From a virus (taxonomy: Duplodnaviria > Heunggongvirae > Uroviricota > Caudoviricetes): a stretch of 23,035 nt of DNA. The first letter of the stretch is position 1. Every line of letters starts with the position of its first letter. Shown one piece after another: positions 1 to 6,000 of this stretch. Position numbers: made by a program. The stretch covers positions 1-23,035 of IMG/VR virus record IMGVR_UViG_2778261160_000005. One strand, 5' to 3'.

Positions 1-3000
1 ATGGCGCTGTCTGATGCGTGGTTGCGTTCAGTCGTTGGAAAGGAACGCGATAAGGTTTTGGTTAAATCAGATCGTGATGGTCTGTCTGTCAGAGTATCAC
101 CGAAAGGTCGCGTAGTGTTCCAATATCGTTATCAATGGGCAGGAAAAGGCGAGCGCCTTGATATCGGAACTTACCCGGCAACTGGATTAAAAGAGGCCAG
201 AGAAGAAGTTATCCGTCTTCGTGGTGAACTCGAGTCAAACCGCAATCCACGATTGGTAAAGCAGGCAGAAAAACGCAAAGCTACTGAATCCATGACGGTA
301 GAGTCTGTGATCCGTGCCTGGTATGAAGCATATTGTGTAAAAAATAAAAAAGGTTCTGAGCAGATACTCCGCTCATTTGAACTGCACCTGTTCTCTAAAA
401 TCGGGAGTATCCCTCACGATGCAGCTACATTGCATGATTGGTTAGAGGTCCTGGAGCCTCTTAGCACTAAGACTCCAGCAATAGCAGACCGATTGCTAAT
501 TAACGCAAAGCAGGCCCATGTCTGGGCGTATAAGAGAAAGCTTATTGAAACTCGCCCGCTGTCGGATATCACGGGTAAAGATATGGATATCCGTAAAGGT
601 CAGAAGAAACGGTTTCTGACACACGATGAAATTAAAATTCTTTATGCTGCGATCGATGGTTCTCGAATGGTTCCCAAATACCGGGCCTTTATTAAACTAT
701 TGCTGCATTTCGGCTGTCGTAGTTCAGAGCTGATTACTGCCAGAGTGGACGATTTTGATTTCATTAATAAGGTATGGACTGTACCACCAGAGCGGCATAA
801 GACAGGGGACATAACAGGCGAACCGCTAAAGCGGCCCATTATTGAACCTGTTGAAGAGCTTATAAAATATGTTATCTCTATGAACAACGGTTCCGATATG
901 CTTTTTACTAAGGAAGGAAGCAGGGAGCCAGTTGGTCGGACATCATTGCAGTCGCTGCCTTACAATTTAATGCAATACGCATGGCGGCGTTTAGGATATC
1001 AATTCCCTCATTGGTCTCTTCATGATTTGAGGCGAACAGCACGAACGAACTTTTCTGATCTTACTGCGCCTCATATTGCAGAAATAATGCTAGGTCATAA
1101 ACTGCCTGGGGTATGGCAAGTTTATGACAAGAGCGATTATCTAGAAGAACAGCGTAAAGCCTACCAGGCATGGTGGGAGAGAGTTGAATCGATTGTTACT
1201 TGTACTAGCTCAAAATCCAATTGATAGTTCGCTTTAAGTGAAAGTGGGTATACCGAATTTTGAACACACTATTATAGCAAATACATTACTAACAATTTTG
1301 TGTCAATCCATATGGTATTGGAGTACAGCTTCTCAAAGGATTTTTTATTACACCATATGTTAAGACAATCCATTAGTCATTTACAATGGTTCTGTGAGCT
1401 CTATAAGCTTATGGCGACTAAGAATTCGACACGAACGATTCTAAATGATAGAAAGAGTCAACGATGGTTGATTAGAAAGAGGGGAATATGGACGTAATTT
1501 ATGTGGGGAAGGATAACGTAAAACGTGACGCTATTCTTAAATCTCATGATACTGTTATCTTGTTATTATTTGATCGATGGGATGACTTCGATTATAAAAC
1601 ATCCTTCCCAACATACTGCCAGATTAACGGTAGAGAGGTTGAACTTCCGGCACTTAAGATTTTGATTAAGGATCAAATGACGTCTTTCAGTTATTTTGAT
1701 GAGCTTGTTTCAAAAGGCTGGGATGGTGTATTTCCTATTAAAGATTTGTCCTATATTTCCAATCCTGAAGATATTACTTTTTACGAACTTATTGATGGAC
1801 ATCTTGGTTCAGATGCAGCTATTAAAGTTGCAGAGGTTCTCTGTGATGCGAGTTATATGGTGCATATTCTTGAAGATTCCAATAGTATGGAATTAGTTAG
1901 CTCAAACGGGTTTAAGAAGTCGCTCCAACGTGAACGTGGATCTATAAAAGCATTTCTCGATGGATGGCGCGCTCTGAACGGAGAGGGTATTAGCATAGGA
2001 AATATGATCTTTCGCTTCCGAACATTTGGGGGAGACATCCAGCCCTTGAGTCTAAATTTCTCTACAGTTTCACCACTACCACATGATATTAATGTTCTGA
2101 TTGGTCCTAATGGTATTGGTAAATCACAAGCTTTAATTCAGATTGTTGACGACTGGCTTAGATTGAATCCGAACGAAAAGAACGAAACTGGCTTTGAAAA
2201 AGAGCCCAATATTAATCAAATTGTTGTTGTTTCTTACAGCCCATTTGAATTGTTCCCAATTGATAGTGAAGTTGTCGATAGAGAGAGTGGTAATGAGCGG
2301 AAAGATCATGATGTTTATCGATATTTTGGTCTACGCACTTATGAAACACAAACGCACCCTGACGGTAAAGAGATAAAAAAAATCCGTTTATCTCGACAAT
2401 GGCCTCATCTTAATGCAGCATATTCCTTAATATTATGCTTGGAGGATGATCGTAAATACGGTGCGATTAAAAATTGGTCTAATAAGGTTGCCACCCTTTA
2501 TTCCGTATTAAAAAACGCAATTGATTTTGACGATATCGCTATTGGTGTTTCTGGTTTTGAAGATAAATCTCAACTATTTGAAAGTGGCCCATGGCTAGTG
2601 GATGATTCATTCATTCCGGCCGATGCCATAATTGATGGTAATGGACAACCTGAGGCATATATTCCAATTCGCTCCGACCGTATAGATGAACCAAATACAA
2701 AAAGATTACGCGAATTTCTTCACGTTCGCACAGGGATTATTTTCCTAAAGGACGGTTCGCCGATTAATTTGAGTTCGGGACAGAGACTGTTTTCCTACAT
2801 GGTTACAAATATTTTAGGAGCAATACGTAGAAACAGTCTTATCTTAATCGATGAACCAGAACTATTCCTGCATCCTACGCTCGAAATTGCCTTTATACAA
2901 ATGTTGAAGAAAATTCTTAGAAACTTTGCCTCCAAGGCTTTGTTGGCAACACATTCATTGGTCACTGTCCGTGAATTGCCACGACATTGTGTCCATGTTT

Positions 3001-6000
3001 TTGAACGTACTAATGATAGTCTATTTATAAATCATCCGCCTTTTGAGACATTTGGTGGAGATATACAGCGGATTTCGTCTTATGTTTTTGGCGATAAATC
3101 TGTTTCTAAACCATTTGAGGCGTGGCTACGTGAAAAATTGGAAGAATATGGATCTGCTAAAGAGCTTATTGAAGCTTTAGGGGACAATATCAACGAGGAA
3201 ATGTTGATTCAGATCCATGCAATGGCGGAGGATAAATGGTGATTCGTCTTGACTCTCCTTGTTTTGAGCTGAATGATATTGAATTAATTGAATGTATTGT
3301 TGAAGAGCGTCAGGGAGGCAAACACAAAGATTATTTTATCAGGATTAAAGAAGCATGGAAGAATCGAGTTTATCAATATATTGAGTTTGGTGGGAATCCT
3401 GAGTCTATTGAAATTTGGGAAGAAATGAATGACCCATTAGTTCATGGGCGATTCAAAAATTTATATATCTCTCCAGGTGTGGAATCTGTTCAGAAGCCCC
3501 TTCTGGATAAATTGCGAAGTCGTGTATTGGATTATTGTCCGTCATGCGGTGAAGATGGAACTCCTAACACGCTTGATCATTATTTACCAAAAAACTTTTT
3601 TCCTGAGTTTTCTGTAACCTTAGTAAATCTTTTCCCTATGTGTGATATATGTCAAGGAGCCAAGGGAGTTAAGATTAGTGATGATAATGGTAAGCGACTT
3701 TTTATTCACCCTTACTATGATAGTTTTATTGAAAGACAAGTCTTAATATTAGATATTCATGAACCATTTAATGCGCCTACTTCAATTGGGCTTCACCCTC
3801 ATCCTGAACTTGACAAAGAGTTTCAAGAATTAATTTCGAGACATATTACAGAGTTAAATATACCAGCACGCTACTATCGATATTTTCAAAGTAATTATTT
3901 GCGGTTACTGCGCCTTGTGGGAAAAATGCGCCATAAGGGGTTGAATGTAAGGGAGCAACTTGAGACTTTTCGAGATATGGCTCTTGAAAAGTCGATTAAT
4001 TCTTGGGGGCATATTTTCTATGACAGCGTGCTACGTAATGAACATCTAATGGAATATTTGTCCAATGAGATGCTGCCTATGATGTGAGTCATGCTATGTT
4101 TCATATACTAAAGTTGAAGATATTAATTACGGTTAAATAGTTCAGTTACTGAAACGTCTATGGCACAGAGCAGGTAATCAGATTAGATTTAGCTCTGTGC
4201 TATAGATGGGGCTGCTAACATCGGAACTAATAAACGTTACTCTATAACGCCCGCAAACCTGTATATCTTGCGTGATGCCCATTTATTTGGGCAGGATTTG
4301 ATATCAGGATCTGGAAAATCAGGCCTGTATTTCTGGCCAGTTCTCCTGTTTACGCTGTTCCAGCGAAGAACAGTCGATACTGAAACGCCACAGAAGTCGG
4401 CGACTTGTTTAGTTGTCATTAAGTTGTTCATTACTTCACCTCCTGCGGCGGCTCCGGTAGCGGCATCCAGTGGGTTACTTTCGATGCCGCTTCTTCCCCA
4501 TCGTCAGTAACTGCCCACCATTTGTTTCTCGACCAATCGTAATACCCTTCGAAGGTATCGCACTCAGTCCAGCCGTAAGGCTTCCCCCAACACCAAACAT
4601 ACTGTTTATCGTTCGGCATTCGCTCACTACAGCTTATCCAACCATCCGGAGTTACCGGAGAGTTGCTCGACAGCTCGTTCAACTTGTAAGTCTGGCTTAC
4701 AGGTTCGGCACCATGAAGCATGGCGGTGCGGCAGGAGTTCCAGCCTTCATGAAAGCCGACTATGCCATTATTTAAAGACGGAAGACCATCCGGCACCACC
4801 GACACAGGCTGAGCCATATATAGCGGCTGAACATACCAGCCCTTTGATAACCAACTGTCAGCAATGTTTTTGCTCCTGGTTATTGCCGGAATACCTAAGC
4901 CATTGTCTGAATGCAGCCACGCCACCGGCTCTGCTTCCAGTGATGCCAGAGCAATTTCATAAGCACGGCGCTCAACATTATCTCGCACGTGCAGGCTGCC
5001 GATTCGTTCTTTGATTTCTTTAATTAGTTCCTTATCGGTGAAAGTGGTCATTATGCCCCAGCCTCCGGTGCTTTTGGCATTACTGCCCAGTGAGTGATAT
5101 TGATATTTTCAAGGTCCCCGACCTGAAATGTCCACTGCCATTCTCCGGTTTCTTTTTGCCTCAATGTGTACCAGAGAGAACGCCAGCCAATCAGCCAGCC
5201 TTCTCCATTAGCATCAAATAACAGAACACTTTCATTTGCTGGCGGCAGTTCAGCTGACACTGGTATTACTTTGTTTTCCAGTGCTGCACATTTAGCTTCA
5301 AGCGTATCGAATTTACGTACCAGGTATTCAGCATCCGTTTCATTCACTTTCACATCTCGCGGTACACATTTCCCGCGAAGAAACCCTTCCATTTCGAAAA
5401 CATTCATGCGCATTTGCGTAACTCTGATAATTCGTTAAAGCGCTCCATAAACATCCCGTAGGCATGGCATGGAGCCAGTGGAATAACTTTGAACATCTCT
5501 GTTGGCGGGATACCTTCCAGTACTGGCCAGAAAGAGCCATCATCAAGCCCGAGATCGCGGCGTTCGGTTGCCAGCATGATGAGATCGGCATATTTCACAG
5601 GTGTGCTCATAACCGGGGGTAACCTGTATTTCTCACGGATTACGGCGTCTATTTTTTCTTCCATCTGTTTATAGTCAGGAAGAAGGCGTTTCAGTGGCGC
5701 GGGGATGTCCTGACAATAAGCTTCTGTTGCATCATGCATTAACGCTTCAAAAGCAAATTCCTGCGGTACCAGATGGCTGCAAAGCACCGCATGTTGGGCG
5801 ACGCTGTAGAAGTGTGAAAGATGTCCTGTAAAGCGACAGATATTTGAAAGGGAAACCGCGATATCGTTAATATCAATGTCGTCTTTATTTATCTTGTCAT
5901 AATAAAAATGCTTCCCGGAAAAAGTTTTAATAAATGACATTTTGTTCTCCACGTATATGCGCTGCACCGCGCTGAATTCGGGTAAAAGGAAGCCCTCACC

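What the first reader, a model, noticed from the sequence alone, without database searches (positions are those of the whole stretch)
1488..4087. AT-rich ATPase + HNH two-gene cassette between int and xis: candidate anti-phage system
A 584-aa ABC/AAA_21-type ATPase (Walker A GPNGIGKS, signature SSGQR, Walker B LILIDEPE, H-loop ATHS) is translationally coupled (ATGGTGA overlap) to a 283-aa protein with a CxxC...DH...N...CxxC HNH motif. The architecture is that of Septu (PtuA/PtuB). The ATPase carries an unassigned ~200-aa N-terminal domain ahead of the Walker A motif, and the HNH partner is relatively long, so this may be a divergent or undescribed variant. The cassette is visibly more AT-rich than the phage backbone and sits between convergent integrase and excisionase genes, a typical cargo site. 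An inverted repeat GGCACAGAGC...GCTCTGTGC at about 4163-4202 follows the cassette.
Basis: partly seen in the sequence, partly recalled or inferred. Interest (0 to 1): 0.75.

Follow-up and report, generated by a model that had tools for sequence, protein, structure and literature searches.

The report
Septu-like ATPase–HNH nuclease prophage cargo
A two-gene ATPase-plus-nuclease module sits in a variable cargo slot of an E. coli prophage. It is a distant relative of the Septu anti-phage system and of phage lambda's Ea59/Ea31 genes, is already listed as an untested defence candidate, and is therefore a plausible but fairly ordinary find.

Summary
A 584-aa ABC-type ATPase (1488-3242) overlaps a 283-aa HNH protein (3236-4087) by 7 nt. 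The pair lies between a convergent integrase and excisionase, in DNA of 37% GC against 48% for the rest of the window.

Both proteins match the PADLOC candidate system PDC-M01 (A and B) end to end, at 1.6e-247 and 4.8e-111. The ATPase also hits PtuA models, and its nearest solved relatives are PtuA proteins. The five best structural matches of the HNH model are all PtuB, though weakly. The closest phage homologues are lambda Ea59 and Ea31. Lambda Ea59 itself matches a PADLOC PtuA model end to end.

The "unassigned" N-terminal domain (about 165 aa) is shared with Ea59. It has no Pfam match and no recognisable solved fold.

The module (1240-4136) travels as a unit. A copy 84% identical in nucleotide sequence lies in a Raoultella defence island, and both genes are under purifying selection. 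The slot after this integrase held different cargo, including AbiU, in all eight prophages sampled. The inverted repeat at 4163-4201 belongs to the phage backbone, not the cassette.

Verdict: a Septu-superfamily, Ea59/Ea31-type module carried as prophage cargo. It is probably anti-phage but has not been tested. Interest is moderate.

The parts
1..1224 (+). Tyrosine integrase (P4-type arm-binding domain). It forms the left flank of the cargo slot.
   Evidence: Pfam Phage_integrase, Arm-DNA-bind_3 and Phage_int_M. Present at 90-99% identity in 700 of 5426 complete E. coli genomes.
1233..4161 (.). Hypervariable cargo slot of this prophage family, between the int stop codon and a conserved backbone hairpin.
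   Evidence: Homology to four other prophages at the yjjG site ends at 1217-1232 and resumes at 4162-4180. All 8 sampled prophages hold different genes here.
1240..4136 (+). The mobile module: leader, ATPase gene and HNH gene.
   Evidence: 83.8% nucleotide identity over exactly this span to a Raoultella chromosomal defence island (L007 7734-10649). GC 0.373.
1240..1487 (+). Non-coding leader that travels with the module. It holds a weak sigma-70-like site (TTAAGA-16-TACAAT at 1360-1387), repeated CAATCCAT/CCATATG(G) blocks (1303-1315 and 1353-1372) and a Shine-Dalgarno sequence at 1477-1484.
   Evidence: Conserved in blocks with the Raoultella copy, but 1-, 2- and 16-nt indels break the 65-aa ORF at 1300-1497. 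Promoter scan. No Rfam family. Promoter function is inferred, not shown.
1488..3242 (+). ABC-type ATPase, 584 aa (PADLOC PDC-M01A; a PtuA/Ea59 relative).
   Evidence: PDLC04238 at 1.6e-247 over 1-584; PtuA1 model PDLC00282 at 5.4e-45. Pfam AAA_21 and AAA_15. Nearest solved relatives are PtuA. Lambda Ea59 is 23% identical over residues 193-583, E 2e-19.
1488..1982 (+). N-terminal domain (residues 1-165) of unknown fold, with invariant W31-D32-D33, K37-T38 and G77-W78.
2103..2126 (+). Walker A motif, GPNGIGKS (residues 206-213).
   Evidence: Read from the sequence. G206, N208, G209, G211, K212 and S213 are invariant.
2769..2861 (+). ABC signature LSSGQR (residues 428-433) and Walker B LILIDEPE (451-458). 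The H-loop His489 follows at 2952-2954.
   Evidence: Invariant columns in alignment A2. This is the region matched by Pfam AAA_21 and AAA_15.
3227..3242 (+). Coupling junction: GGAGG (3227-3231), the HNH start ATG at 3236 and the ATPase stop TGA at 3240-3242.
   Evidence: Sequence. The same 7-nt overlap is called in the Raoultella, Pseudomonas, Stenotrophomonas and Enterobacter loci. The Brenneria and Burkholderia gene calls differ.
3236..4087 (+). HNH nuclease partner, 283 aa (PADLOC PDC-M01B; a PtuB/Ea31 relative).
   Evidence: PDLC04270 at 4.8e-111 over 1-282. PHROG HNH endonuclease phrog_10378 at 6.8e-22. The AF2 model has pLDDT 87.7, and its five best PDB matches are all PtuB. Lambda Ea31 is 33% identical over residues 101-213.
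3536..3664 (+). HNH catalytic core with zinc-ribbon cysteines (residues 101-143): CPSC...LDH115...N131...C136DIC139Q140..K143.
   Evidence: Invariant in 30 homologues. Pfam HNH gives only a weak hit, in 6 of 30 members.
4163..4201 (.). Inverted repeat with a 9-10-bp stem and a 20-nt loop. It is a prophage backbone element marking the right edge of the slot, not part of the module.
   Evidence: Conserved in prophages carrying other cargo, with a two-sided change in L006 (GAC/GTC). It is absent from the Raoultella copy, whose homology ends at 4136.
4237..4431 (-). Excisionase, forming the right flank and convergent with the module.
   Evidence: PHROG excisionase phrog_1553 at 7.9e-35. Weak HTH_17 and MerR-type helix-turn-helix matches, below Pfam's cut-offs.

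Best explanation
This is a self-contained two-gene module of the Septu superfamily, of the lambda Ea59/Ea31 type that PADLOC lists as candidate system PDC-M01. It is carried as accessory cargo in the hypervariable slot just downstream of the integrase of a lambdoid E. coli prophage.

Shown here:
- An intact ABC-type ATPase and an intact HNH nuclease are encoded by overlapping genes. The same 7-nt overlap is called in four other genera.
- The two genes co-occur, are under purifying selection, and move together with their own 250-nt leader between prophages, integrative islands and chromosomal defence islands.

Inferred by analogy with characterised Septu and retron-Eco7 PtuAB:
- The module is expressed from its own leader in the lysogen.
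- The ATPase oligomerises through its ABC heads and holds the nuclease inactive.
- An infection cue releases or activates the nuclease. The cue may be read by the clade-specific 165-aa N-terminal domain, much as the N-terminal extension of retron PtuA is the contact point for its regulator.
- The nuclease then damages DNA and/or depletes a tRNA (tRNA-Tyr in known Septu). This stops the infecting phage at the cost of growth arrest, and so protects the lysogen population and the prophage.
For: Family placement:
- PADLOC PDC-M01A and PDC-M01B match end to end (1.6e-247 and 4.8e-111), and the PtuA1 model PDLC00282 hits at 5.4e-45.
- The closest solved ATPases are PtuA of retron Ec78 and Septu, followed by OLD and ABC transporters.
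- The five best Foldseek PDB hits of the HNH model are all PtuB (8eea_G, 9u9y_H and others; probability 0.60-0.99, at least 0.92 for the top three).
- Lambda Ea59 matches PtuA1 model PDLC00282 end to end (5.4e-184) and PDC-M01A. Ea31 matches PDC-M01B. The window pair aligns to both, including the N-terminal domain.

Intact and selected: all catalytic motifs are invariant. dN/dS is 0.13 and 0.21.

Modularity and context:
- An 84%-identical copy, leader included, lies in a Raoultella island beside a YobI-type ATPase, a HEPN protein and a KAP/NACHT-like NTPase.
- A Burkholderia copy lies beside Mrr_cat, CTD6 and MC2 genes. A Stenotrophomonas copy is on an integrative island. An Enterobacter copy is a moron between the tape-measure gene and gpM.
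- The slot is hypervariable, with 8 different cargos in 8 prophages, one of them AbiU at 2.6e-111.
- The module is in only 4 of 5426 complete E. coli genomes, while the integrase is in 700.

Literature:
- Septu needs both the Walker motifs and the HNH motif, and cleaves tRNA-Tyr (PMC13096335).
- PtuAB is a controlled ATPase-nuclease complex, and retron PtuA uses an N-terminal extension for regulatory contacts (PMC12819146).
- PDC-M01 calls overlap DefenseFinder Septu calls (PMC11811056).
- Septu occurs in prophage and satellite hotspots (PMC9122126).
Against: - No phage-protection data exist for this subfamily or for lambda ea59/ea31 in the held literature. PDC-M01 is an unpublished candidate.
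- Similarity to experimentally characterised PtuA is limited to roughly 100-200 residues of the central and C-terminal part, around the signature and Walker B motifs. The NCBIfam PtuA equivalog scores 42 bits against a cut-off of 500.
- The HNH profile finds no solved PtuB by sequence. The fold match is weak (E 0.014-0.22, TM 0.31-0.49).
- The residue after the second CxxC is an invariant Gln, where Ea31 has Asn.
- Expression in the lysogen, complex formation, the trigger and the substrate are all inferred.
- In lambda the homologous pair is an early lytic transcript, so a phage-side role is possible.
Confidence: 0.68

Rival explanations
1. The module serves the phage rather than host immunity. 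Like lambda ea59/ea31, the pair would be an accessory ATP-dependent endonuclease used during lytic growth or after induction. It might process or degrade host or competitor DNA, or help recombination, and would not act in the lysogen as a defence.
For: - The closest phage homologues are lambda Ea59 and Ea31.
- ea59 is labelled 'ATP-dependent endonuclease', and both genes are dispensable for lambda growth (PMC10695390).
[quoted passage not shown] That this enzyme is Ea31 plus Ea59 is my recollection only and was not verified here.
- One copy sits inside a tail operon.
Against: - The module carries its own leader wherever it goes.
- In the window it points away from the early-left operon and is convergent with xis.
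- It also lies in non-phage chromosomal islands next to defence-type genes, where a lytic-cycle role makes no sense.
Confidence: 0.15
2. The module is an addiction or stabilisation module. The nuclease would be a toxin restrained by the ATPase, and its main effect would be to keep the prophage or island in the genome. Any phage exclusion would be incidental.
For: - Pfam names the ATPase domain 'AAA_21, putative AbiEii toxin, type IV TA system'.
- Free PtuAB of retron Ec78 is toxic (PMC12819146).
- The module always sits on mobile or variable DNA.
Against: - There is no AbiEi-type antitoxin or nucleotidyltransferase. The Pfam name reflects only the shared ABC fold.
- The module is found in only 4 of the 700 E. 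coli genomes that carry this integrase.
- The slot turns over rapidly, which is not what a strong addiction module predicts.
Confidence: 0.08
3. The pair is a selfish homing-type HNH endonuclease with a helper ATPase, and spreads by cutting empty slots.
For: - HNH enzymes are common homing endonucleases.
- The module has sharp boundaries (1240 and 4136) shared between unrelated genomes.
- It is inserted in different places in different phages.
Against: - The HNH protein is PtuB/Ea31-like over its whole length, not a short free-standing homing HNH.
- It is always paired with a large ABC ATPase.
- The same slot holds many unrelated cargos. That fits recombination between conserved flanks better than homing by this element.
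Confidence: 0.04
4. The pair is a cellular DNA-repair or chromosome-maintenance paralogue (RecF, RecN or SMC-like) with an unrelated neighbour.
For: ABC-type ATPases with inserted domains include repair proteins. Weak hits to ABC transporters and EF3 appear in the PDB searches.
Against: - No NCBIfam or Pfam repair family is matched.
- The best relatives are PtuA, OLD, AriA and PDC-M01.
- The distribution is patchy, the DNA is AT-rich, and the pair is strictly conserved on mobile DNA.
Confidence: 0.02

Closest known systems
Septu type I (PtuA ABC ATPase plus PtuB HNH nuclease; E. coli ATCC 25922 and B88, Bacillus)
   Same: - It is a two-gene operon with the ATPase first and the HNH nuclease second.
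- All ABC motifs and the HNH core with its zinc-binding cysteines are intact.
- The nearest solved structures for both proteins are PtuA and PtuB.
- A PADLOC PtuA1 model hits the ATPase at 5.4e-45.
- The HNH core reads C-x-x-C...DH[YF]xP...FP(E/A)(F/L)(S/T)...NLF..C, as in PtuB.
- Septu is also found in prophage and satellite hotspots (PMC9122126).
   Different: - Walker A Lys is at position 212, against K43 in Septu EcB88 (PMC13096335). The difference is an extra N-terminal domain of about 165 aa with unknown fold.
- The HNH His is at 115, against H75. The partner is about 50-80 aa longer than solved PtuB chains (283 aa against 205-234).
- An invariant Gln follows the second CxxC.
- Sequence similarity to solved PtuA is confined to the region around the signature and Walker B motifs. 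PtuB cannot be detected by sequence profile.
- There is no functional test.
Phage lambda Ea59/Ea31 (b-region early genes)
   Same: - The gene order and the overlapping stop and start codons are the same.
- Ea59 also places Walker A about 190 residues in and shares the N-terminal domain, including the D-x-W-[DN]-D-[YF]..T.F motif.
- Ea31 is a similarly long HNH protein of 296 aa.
- Both pairs belong to PADLOC PDC-M01.
- Both are phage-borne and lie near int and att.
   Different: - Identity is only 23% (ATPase) and 33% (HNH core). The two pairs fall in different PDC-M01 sub-clusters (PDLC04238/04270 against 04235/04256).
- In lambda the pair lies across attP from int, at the far end of the leftward early transcript. 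Here it lies between int and xis, with its own leader, and is convergent with xis.
PADLOC-DB candidate system PDC-M01 (unpublished 'phage defence candidate')
   Same: Both proteins match one A model and one B model end to end, and the genes are adjacent. This is the family the module belongs to.
   Different: Nothing differs structurally. However, PDC-M01 is only a computational candidate. In a Bacillus cereus-group survey, PDC-M01 calls overlapped DefenseFinder Septu calls (PMC11811056).
Retron Ec78/Eco7 (type I-A retron, also called 'Septu type II')
   Same: It uses a PtuA/PtuB-type effector pair. Retron PtuA also carries an N-terminal extension, which it uses for regulatory contacts (PMC12819146).
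   Different: There is no reverse transcriptase gene and no retron ncRNA in the slot. The N-terminal domain here is much larger and was not matched to Ec78 PtuA in the sequence searches.
OLD, Gabija GajA and PARIS AriA/AriB (ABC ATPase plus Toprim nuclease)
   Same: They share the ABC ATPase class. AriA and OLD-family models hit the signature and Walker B region. The logic of an ATPase controlling a nuclease is the same.
   Different: The nuclease here is an HNH protein encoded by a separate gene, not a Toprim or DUF4435 domain.

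Membership tests
Septu (PtuA/PtuB) | Adjacent, co-oriented genes encoding an ABC-type (AAA_15/AAA_21) ATPase followed by an HNH nuclease | tested here: met
   ORFs 1488-3242 and 3236-4087 overlap by 7 nt. Pfam AAA_21 and AAA_15 match the ATPase. HNH motifs are present, with a PHROG HNH endonuclease hit.
Septu (PtuA/PtuB) | The ATPase is recognised by PtuA sequence models | tested here: inconclusive
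   PADLOC PtuA1 model PDLC00282 hits at 5.4e-45, but the best stretch covers only residues 427-571. The isolated N-terminal domain also hits it at 3e-8. The NCBIfam PtuA equivalog NF041760 scores 42 bits against a cut-off of 500. DefenseFinder models were not available.
Septu (PtuA/PtuB) | The partner is a PtuB-type HNH protein | tested here: inconclusive
   The five best Foldseek PDB hits are all PtuB, but they are weak (E 0.014-0.22, TM 0.31-0.49). The sequence profile finds no solved PtuB and NCBIfam finds nothing. The HNH core motifs resemble PtuB.
Septu (PtuA/PtuB) | Walker A/B and HNH catalytic residues are present (both are required for defence, PMC13096335) | tested here: met
   K212, D455/E456, H489, H115 and N131 are invariant.
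Septu (PtuA/PtuB) | Protection against phage that depends on both activities, and a PtuA-PtuB complex | not testable with these tools
   This needs plaque assays and co-purification. No complex-prediction tool was available.
PADLOC PDC-M01 candidate system | Adjacent genes matching a PDC-M01A model and a PDC-M01B model | tested here: met
   PDLC04238 at 1.6e-247 (protein 1-584 against profile 1-564 of 564). PDLC04270 at 4.8e-111 (protein 1-282 against profile 1-278 of 280).
Lambda Ea59/Ea31 family | Homology of both proteins, including the N-terminal domain of the ATPase, with the same gene order | tested here: met
   BLASTP E 2e-19 and 1e-13. Reciprocal N-terminal domain hits to each other's models. 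hhalign gives 49% probability, E 1.7e-4. Lambda gene order. The relationship is remote, at 23-33% identity.
Type I-A retron (Septu type II) | A reverse transcriptase gene and an msr/msd ncRNA next to ptuAB | tested here: not met
   No further long ORF lies in the slot. There is no credible Rfam hit in 1-4600; the only match is a chance-level miRNA-family hit inside int. The leader is non-coding and only 250 nt long.
OLD / Gabija / PARIS | A Toprim (or DUF4435) nuclease fused to or paired with the ABC ATPase | tested here: not met
   No Toprim match was found in either protein. The partner is an HNH protein.
AbiE type IV toxin-antitoxin (source of the Pfam AAA_21 name) | An AbiEi antitoxin plus an AbiEii nucleotidyltransferase toxin | tested here: not met
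   Only the generic ABC region (residues 425-494) matches AAA_21. There is no AbiEi-like gene in the slot.

The most novel reading that the evidence does not exclude
The Ea59/Ea31-type clade may be a functionally distinct branch of Septu. Its 165-aa N-terminal domain has no known fold and is confined to these ATPases, apart from a fragment-level match to candidate PDC-S34. That domain could be a new infection sensor, giving the clade a different trigger and phage range from characterised Septu. If so, the module would also explain the unassigned lambda b-region genes ea59/ea31 as a phage-borne immune system used against competing phages.
Probability: 0.3. Interest if true: 0.6.

Novelty: new member of a known kind. 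Interest (0 to 1): 0.4.

Why it matters
If the module protects against phage, three things follow.
- It would be the first experimental validation of a widespread PADLOC candidate family (PDC-M01).
- It would show that Septu-type ATPase-nuclease systems include a clade with an extra N-terminal domain of unknown fold, which is a candidate sensor.
- It would give a function to lambda's ea59/ea31, which are routinely deleted as dispensable when lambda is engineered.

The slot after this integrase is present in about 13% of complete E. coli genomes and held different cargo in every prophage sampled. It is therefore a practical place to look for further untested defence genes.

Tried and rejected
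- **Solved PtuB by sequence.** The HNH profile found no PDB chain at E up to 1.
- **Retron or ncRNA in the leader.** There is no credible Rfam hit. The 65-aa ORF at 1300-1497 is broken by indels in the Raoultella copy.
- **Inverted repeat as a cassette terminator.** Rejected. It is conserved in prophages with other cargo and absent from the Raoultella copy. It has a 20-nt loop and no T-run and is not in the terminator scan.
- **Terminator-like hairpin at 3964-3993.** It lies inside the HNH ORF and is within chance expectation (4 found against 2.2 expected).
- **Literature.** No held paper links ea59/ea31 to defence or to Septu. Li et al. 2024, Benchimol 1982 and Casjens & Hendrix 2015 could not be read.
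- **PADLOC PtuB models.** Hits ranked below 25 for the HNH protein are not displayed, so a direct PADLOC PtuB score could not be obtained.

Full report
**1. The observation**

The ORF map confirms the layout. The integrase is at 1-1224 (+), a 584-aa ORF at 1488-3242 (+), a 283-aa ORF at 3236-4087 (+), and a 64-aa ORF at 4237-4431 (-).

- The last ORF is an excisionase (PHROG phrog_1553, 7.9e-35). The first is a tyrosine integrase with a P4-type arm-binding domain.
- The two central genes overlap in ATGGTGA (3236-3242), with a perfect GGAGG at 3227-3231. AAGAGGGG precedes the ATPase start codon.
- The HNH motifs are C101xxC104, D114-H115, N131 and C136xxC139.
- GC is 0.373 over the module, against 0.449 for int and 0.478 for the rest of the window.

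Both ORFs are real genes. Each has hundreds of full-length homologues across Gamma- and Betaproteobacteria. The catalytic residues are invariant. dN/dS against a Raoultella copy is 0.13 for the ATPase and 0.21 for the HNH gene.

**2. What the proteins are**

PADLOC-DB gives end-to-end matches to the candidate system PDC-M01. The ATPase matches PDC-M01A model PDLC04238 at 1.6e-247 (residues 1-584 against profile positions 1-564 of 564). The partner matches PDC-M01B model PDLC04270 at 4.8e-111. The ATPase also hits PtuA models (PDLC00282 at 5.4e-45) and, more weakly, AriA and OLD-type models.

Pfam sees only the generic AAA_21/AAA_15 region at residues 425-494 and nothing in the partner. NCBIfam has no model for either protein above its cut-off. 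The retron PtuA equivalog scores 42 bits against a cut-off of 500.

By sequence, the nearest solved chains to the ATPase are PtuA proteins of retron Ec78 and of Septu, followed by the Eco8 OLD nuclease and ABC transporters.

The HNH protein has no sequence match in the PDB, even with a 30-sequence profile. Its AlphaFold model is good (pLDDT 87.7, pTM 0.81). The five best Foldseek PDB matches are all PtuB: E. coli Septu 8eea_G, then four retron Ec78/Eco7 PtuB chains. They align over 181-250 columns with probability 0.60-0.99, but with weak E-values (0.014-0.22) and TM-scores (0.31-0.49).

The fold therefore supports a PtuB-like protein without proving membership.

**3. The lambda connection**

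A homologue from Brenneria is named 'EA59 gene protein' by UniProt. A tblastn search of 50,697 phage records found that the best phage relatives of the two proteins are lambda Ea59 and Ea31. These are adjacent, overlapping genes in the same order, just across attP from int.

- The window ATPase aligns to Ea59 over residues 193-583 (23% identity, E 2e-19). The HNH protein aligns to Ea31 over residues 101-213 (33% identity, E 1e-13).
- Lambda Ea59 matches both PDC-M01A (PDLC04235, 3.9e-201) and the PADLOC PtuA1 model PDLC00282, the latter end to end (5.4e-184). Ea31 matches PDC-M01B (5.8e-113).

So Septu, PDC-M01, lambda Ea59/Ea31 and the window pair form one superfamily. The window pair is a different sub-cluster from lambda's.

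In the held literature ea59/ea31 appear only as dispensable b-region genes. ea59 is labelled 'ATP-dependent endonuclease' (PMC10695390, PMC9674246). I found no paper linking them to defence. I recall that a two-subunit lambda endonuclease (Benchimol et al. 1982, cited in PMC5241400) was assigned to Ea31 plus Ea59. I could not verify this, so it is only a lead.

**4. The N-terminal domain**

Walker A starts at residue 206, whereas characterised Septu has its Walker A lysine at K43 (PMC13096335). The region before it is strongly conserved, with invariant W31-D32-D33, K37-T38, C44, G77-W78, Y89/S91/P93, F98-Y99 and R148-E149.

- A full HMMER scan of 1.8 billion cluster representatives with residues 1-195 found only 70 clusters. 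All full-length hits carry the domain at the N-terminus of about 540-610-aa proteins, which is the same architecture.
- The AF2 model (pLDDT 79) shows a beta-rich sub-domain followed by a helical bundle. I read the strands at about 173-189 as belonging to the ABC core, so the extra domain is about 165 aa.
- It is homologous to the N-terminus of Ea59. The isolated domain hits the Ea59-type models PDLC04235 (6.9e-11) and PtuA1 PDLC00282 (3e-8). The Ea59 N-terminus hits PDLC04238 (1.1e-5). hhalign aligns the D-x-W-[DN]-D-[YF]..T.F motif.

The 'unassigned' domain is therefore a hallmark of the Ea59/PDC-M01A clade, not a peculiarity of this gene. Its function is unknown.

**5. Mobility and context**

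BLAST against four other E. coli prophages integrated at the same site (downstream of yjjG) shows that backbone homology stops at 1217-1232 and resumes at 4162-4180.

The integrase is in 700 of 5426 complete E. coli genomes, but the module is in only 4. I inspected seven other prophages with this integrase, and none carries this module. Each holds something different in the slot:

- a 515-aa hypothetical protein
- a 331-aa hypothetical protein
- a DUF4365 protein
- an AIPR/AbiU protein (PADLOC AbiU, 2.6e-111)
- two small hypothetical proteins
- an FlxA-like protein plus a small ORF
- a DUF6602 protein

The module itself, exactly 1240-4136 including its 250-nt leader, is 84% identical in nucleotide sequence to a segment of a Raoultella chromosome. 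There it lies beside a YobI-type ATPase, a HEPN protein, a KAP/NACHT-like NTPase and an integrase remnant.

More distant copies occur in other settings:

- in Pseudomonas, beside a RelA/SpoT-domain gene
- in Stenotrophomonas, on an integrative island
- in Brenneria, after a decayed P4-type integrase and next to DUF6602
- in Burkholderia, next to Mrr_cat, CTD6 and MC2 genes
- in an Enterobacter lambdoid prophage, between the tape-measure gene and gpM

Four of these (Raoultella, Pseudomonas, Stenotrophomonas, Enterobacter) keep the same 7-nt overlap.

The leader has no conserved ORF, because indels break the 65-aa frame, and no Rfam match. It has conserved blocks, including repeated CAATCCAT/CCATATG(G) motifs, and a weak sigma-70-like site at 1360-1387.

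The inverted repeat at 4163-4201 is conserved in prophages with other cargo, including a two-sided change in one of them. It is absent from the Raoultella copy. It therefore belongs to the phage backbone and marks the slot edge.

**6. How it most likely works**

*Shown here:* an intact ABC ATPase and an intact HNH nuclease are encoded by overlapping genes. They are under purifying selection and are always found together on mobile or variable DNA, often next to defence-type genes.

*Inferred from characterised relatives:*

- Stand-alone Septu PtuAB is a controlled ATPase-nuclease complex. Retron Ec78 PtuAB nicks DNA in vitro and targets tRNA-Tyr in cells (PMC12819146).
- In retron Ec78, PtuA uses an N-terminal extension to contact its regulator (PMC12819146).

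By analogy, I propose the following sequence. The module is expressed from its own leader in the lysogen. The ATPase oligomer holds the nuclease inactive. The N-terminal domain takes part in sensing or restraint. An infection cue then frees the nuclease to damage DNA and/or deplete a tRNA, which blocks competing phages.

I put about 0.9 on the pair being a Septu-superfamily ATPase-nuclease complex. I put about 0.65-0.7 on anti-phage defence being its selected function. The role of the N-terminal domain is speculation.

**7. Rivals**

- *A phage-side lytic function, as for lambda's early Ea59/Ea31 (0.15).* This fits the lambda homology. It does not fit the non-phage island copies, the autonomous leader, or the orientation away from the early operon.
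- *An addiction module (0.08).* There is no AbiE partner. The module's rarity and the slot's turnover argue against it.
- *A homing HNH element (0.04).* The protein is PtuB-like and always paired with the ATPase. The slot also exchanges unrelated cargo.
- *A DNA-repair paralogue (0.02).* No family evidence supports it.

**8. Comparison and novelty**

The architecture and logic are those of Septu.

Membership of PADLOC PDC-M01 is met outright. Remote homology to lambda Ea59/Ea31 is met. Membership of Septu as defined by characterised PtuA/PtuB is met for architecture and motifs. It is only inconclusive at the level of PtuA and PtuB sequence models and fold scores. The retron, OLD/Gabija/PARIS and AbiE families all fail on a defining component.

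The exact subfamily already has models in a public defence database, and databases treat Ea59-like ATPases as PtuA. I therefore file this as a new member of a known kind. The untested points are whether it defends at all and what the N-terminal domain does.

**9. Verdict**

The variant is catalogued, although uncharacterised. The N-terminal domain is a clade trait shared with lambda Ea59. The inverted repeat is not part of the cassette.

Interest is moderate (0.4). This is a sound experimental candidate with a useful link to lambda, but not a surprise to specialists.

Noticed in passing
window 9703-13457: This block (ymfL, Rha/ash, replication helix-turn-helix, PerC and RusA genes) is inverted relative to the otherwise 99.9%-identical prophage of E. 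coli 16F5M1D1. No complete E. coli genome spans either junction; the best hits cover exactly 9703-13457. There are no inverted repeats at the breakpoints. A methylase segment is also missing, and 12186-12701 differs. It could be a real inversion or an assembly artefact.
   Followed up: partly
window 4163-4201: The inverted repeat GGCACAGAGC...GCTCTGTGC is conserved at the right edge of the cargo slot in prophages with unrelated cargo, with a two-sided change (GAC/GTC) in one of them. It could be a structured RNA or a protein-binding site downstream of xis. Its function is unknown.
   Followed up: partly
window 1225-1260, and L003-L006 around 6225-6290: Just after the int stop codon, the other prophages share a short hairpin-like sequence (CCGCTTTGAGCG-AAAGCGG). 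The window and the Raoultella copy have a related CGCTTT..AAAGTG at the left junction of the module. This may be the int terminator and/or a recombination point for cargo exchange.
   Followed up: no
window 1303-1315 and 1353-1372: Repeated CAATCCAT and CCATATG(G) blocks in the module's leader are conserved in the Raoultella copy while the surrounding sequence diverges. They could be operator sites.
   Followed up: no
L017 8001-10603 (Enterobacter lambdoid prophage): A 64%-identical copy of the ATPase, with a 283-aa partner, is inserted as a moron between the tape-measure gene and the minor tail gene gpM. This is a different slot in a different phage.
   Followed up: no
L002 (lambda Ea59 residues 17-85): The first half of the Ea59 N-terminal domain matches the C-terminal part (profile positions 311-374 of 416) of the single-gene PADLOC candidate PDC-S34 at 3.8e-9. 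Part of this domain therefore occurs in another candidate defence protein. The window's own domain did not reach E 0.1 against that model.
   Followed up: no
L015 10804-11508 and L020 5430-6785: A DUF6602 protein lies immediately downstream of the module in Brenneria. A DUF6602 protein is also the alternative cargo in the same E. coli int-xis slot in strain SX12. It may be another accessory or defence candidate travelling in the same niches.
   Followed up: no
L003 6396-7943 and L004 6591-7586 (the same slot in other E. coli prophages): Two alternative cargo proteins, of 515 aa and 331 aa, have no PADLOC match at 1e-5 and are annotated as hypothetical. Given the slot, they are unexplored defence candidates.
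   Followed up: partly
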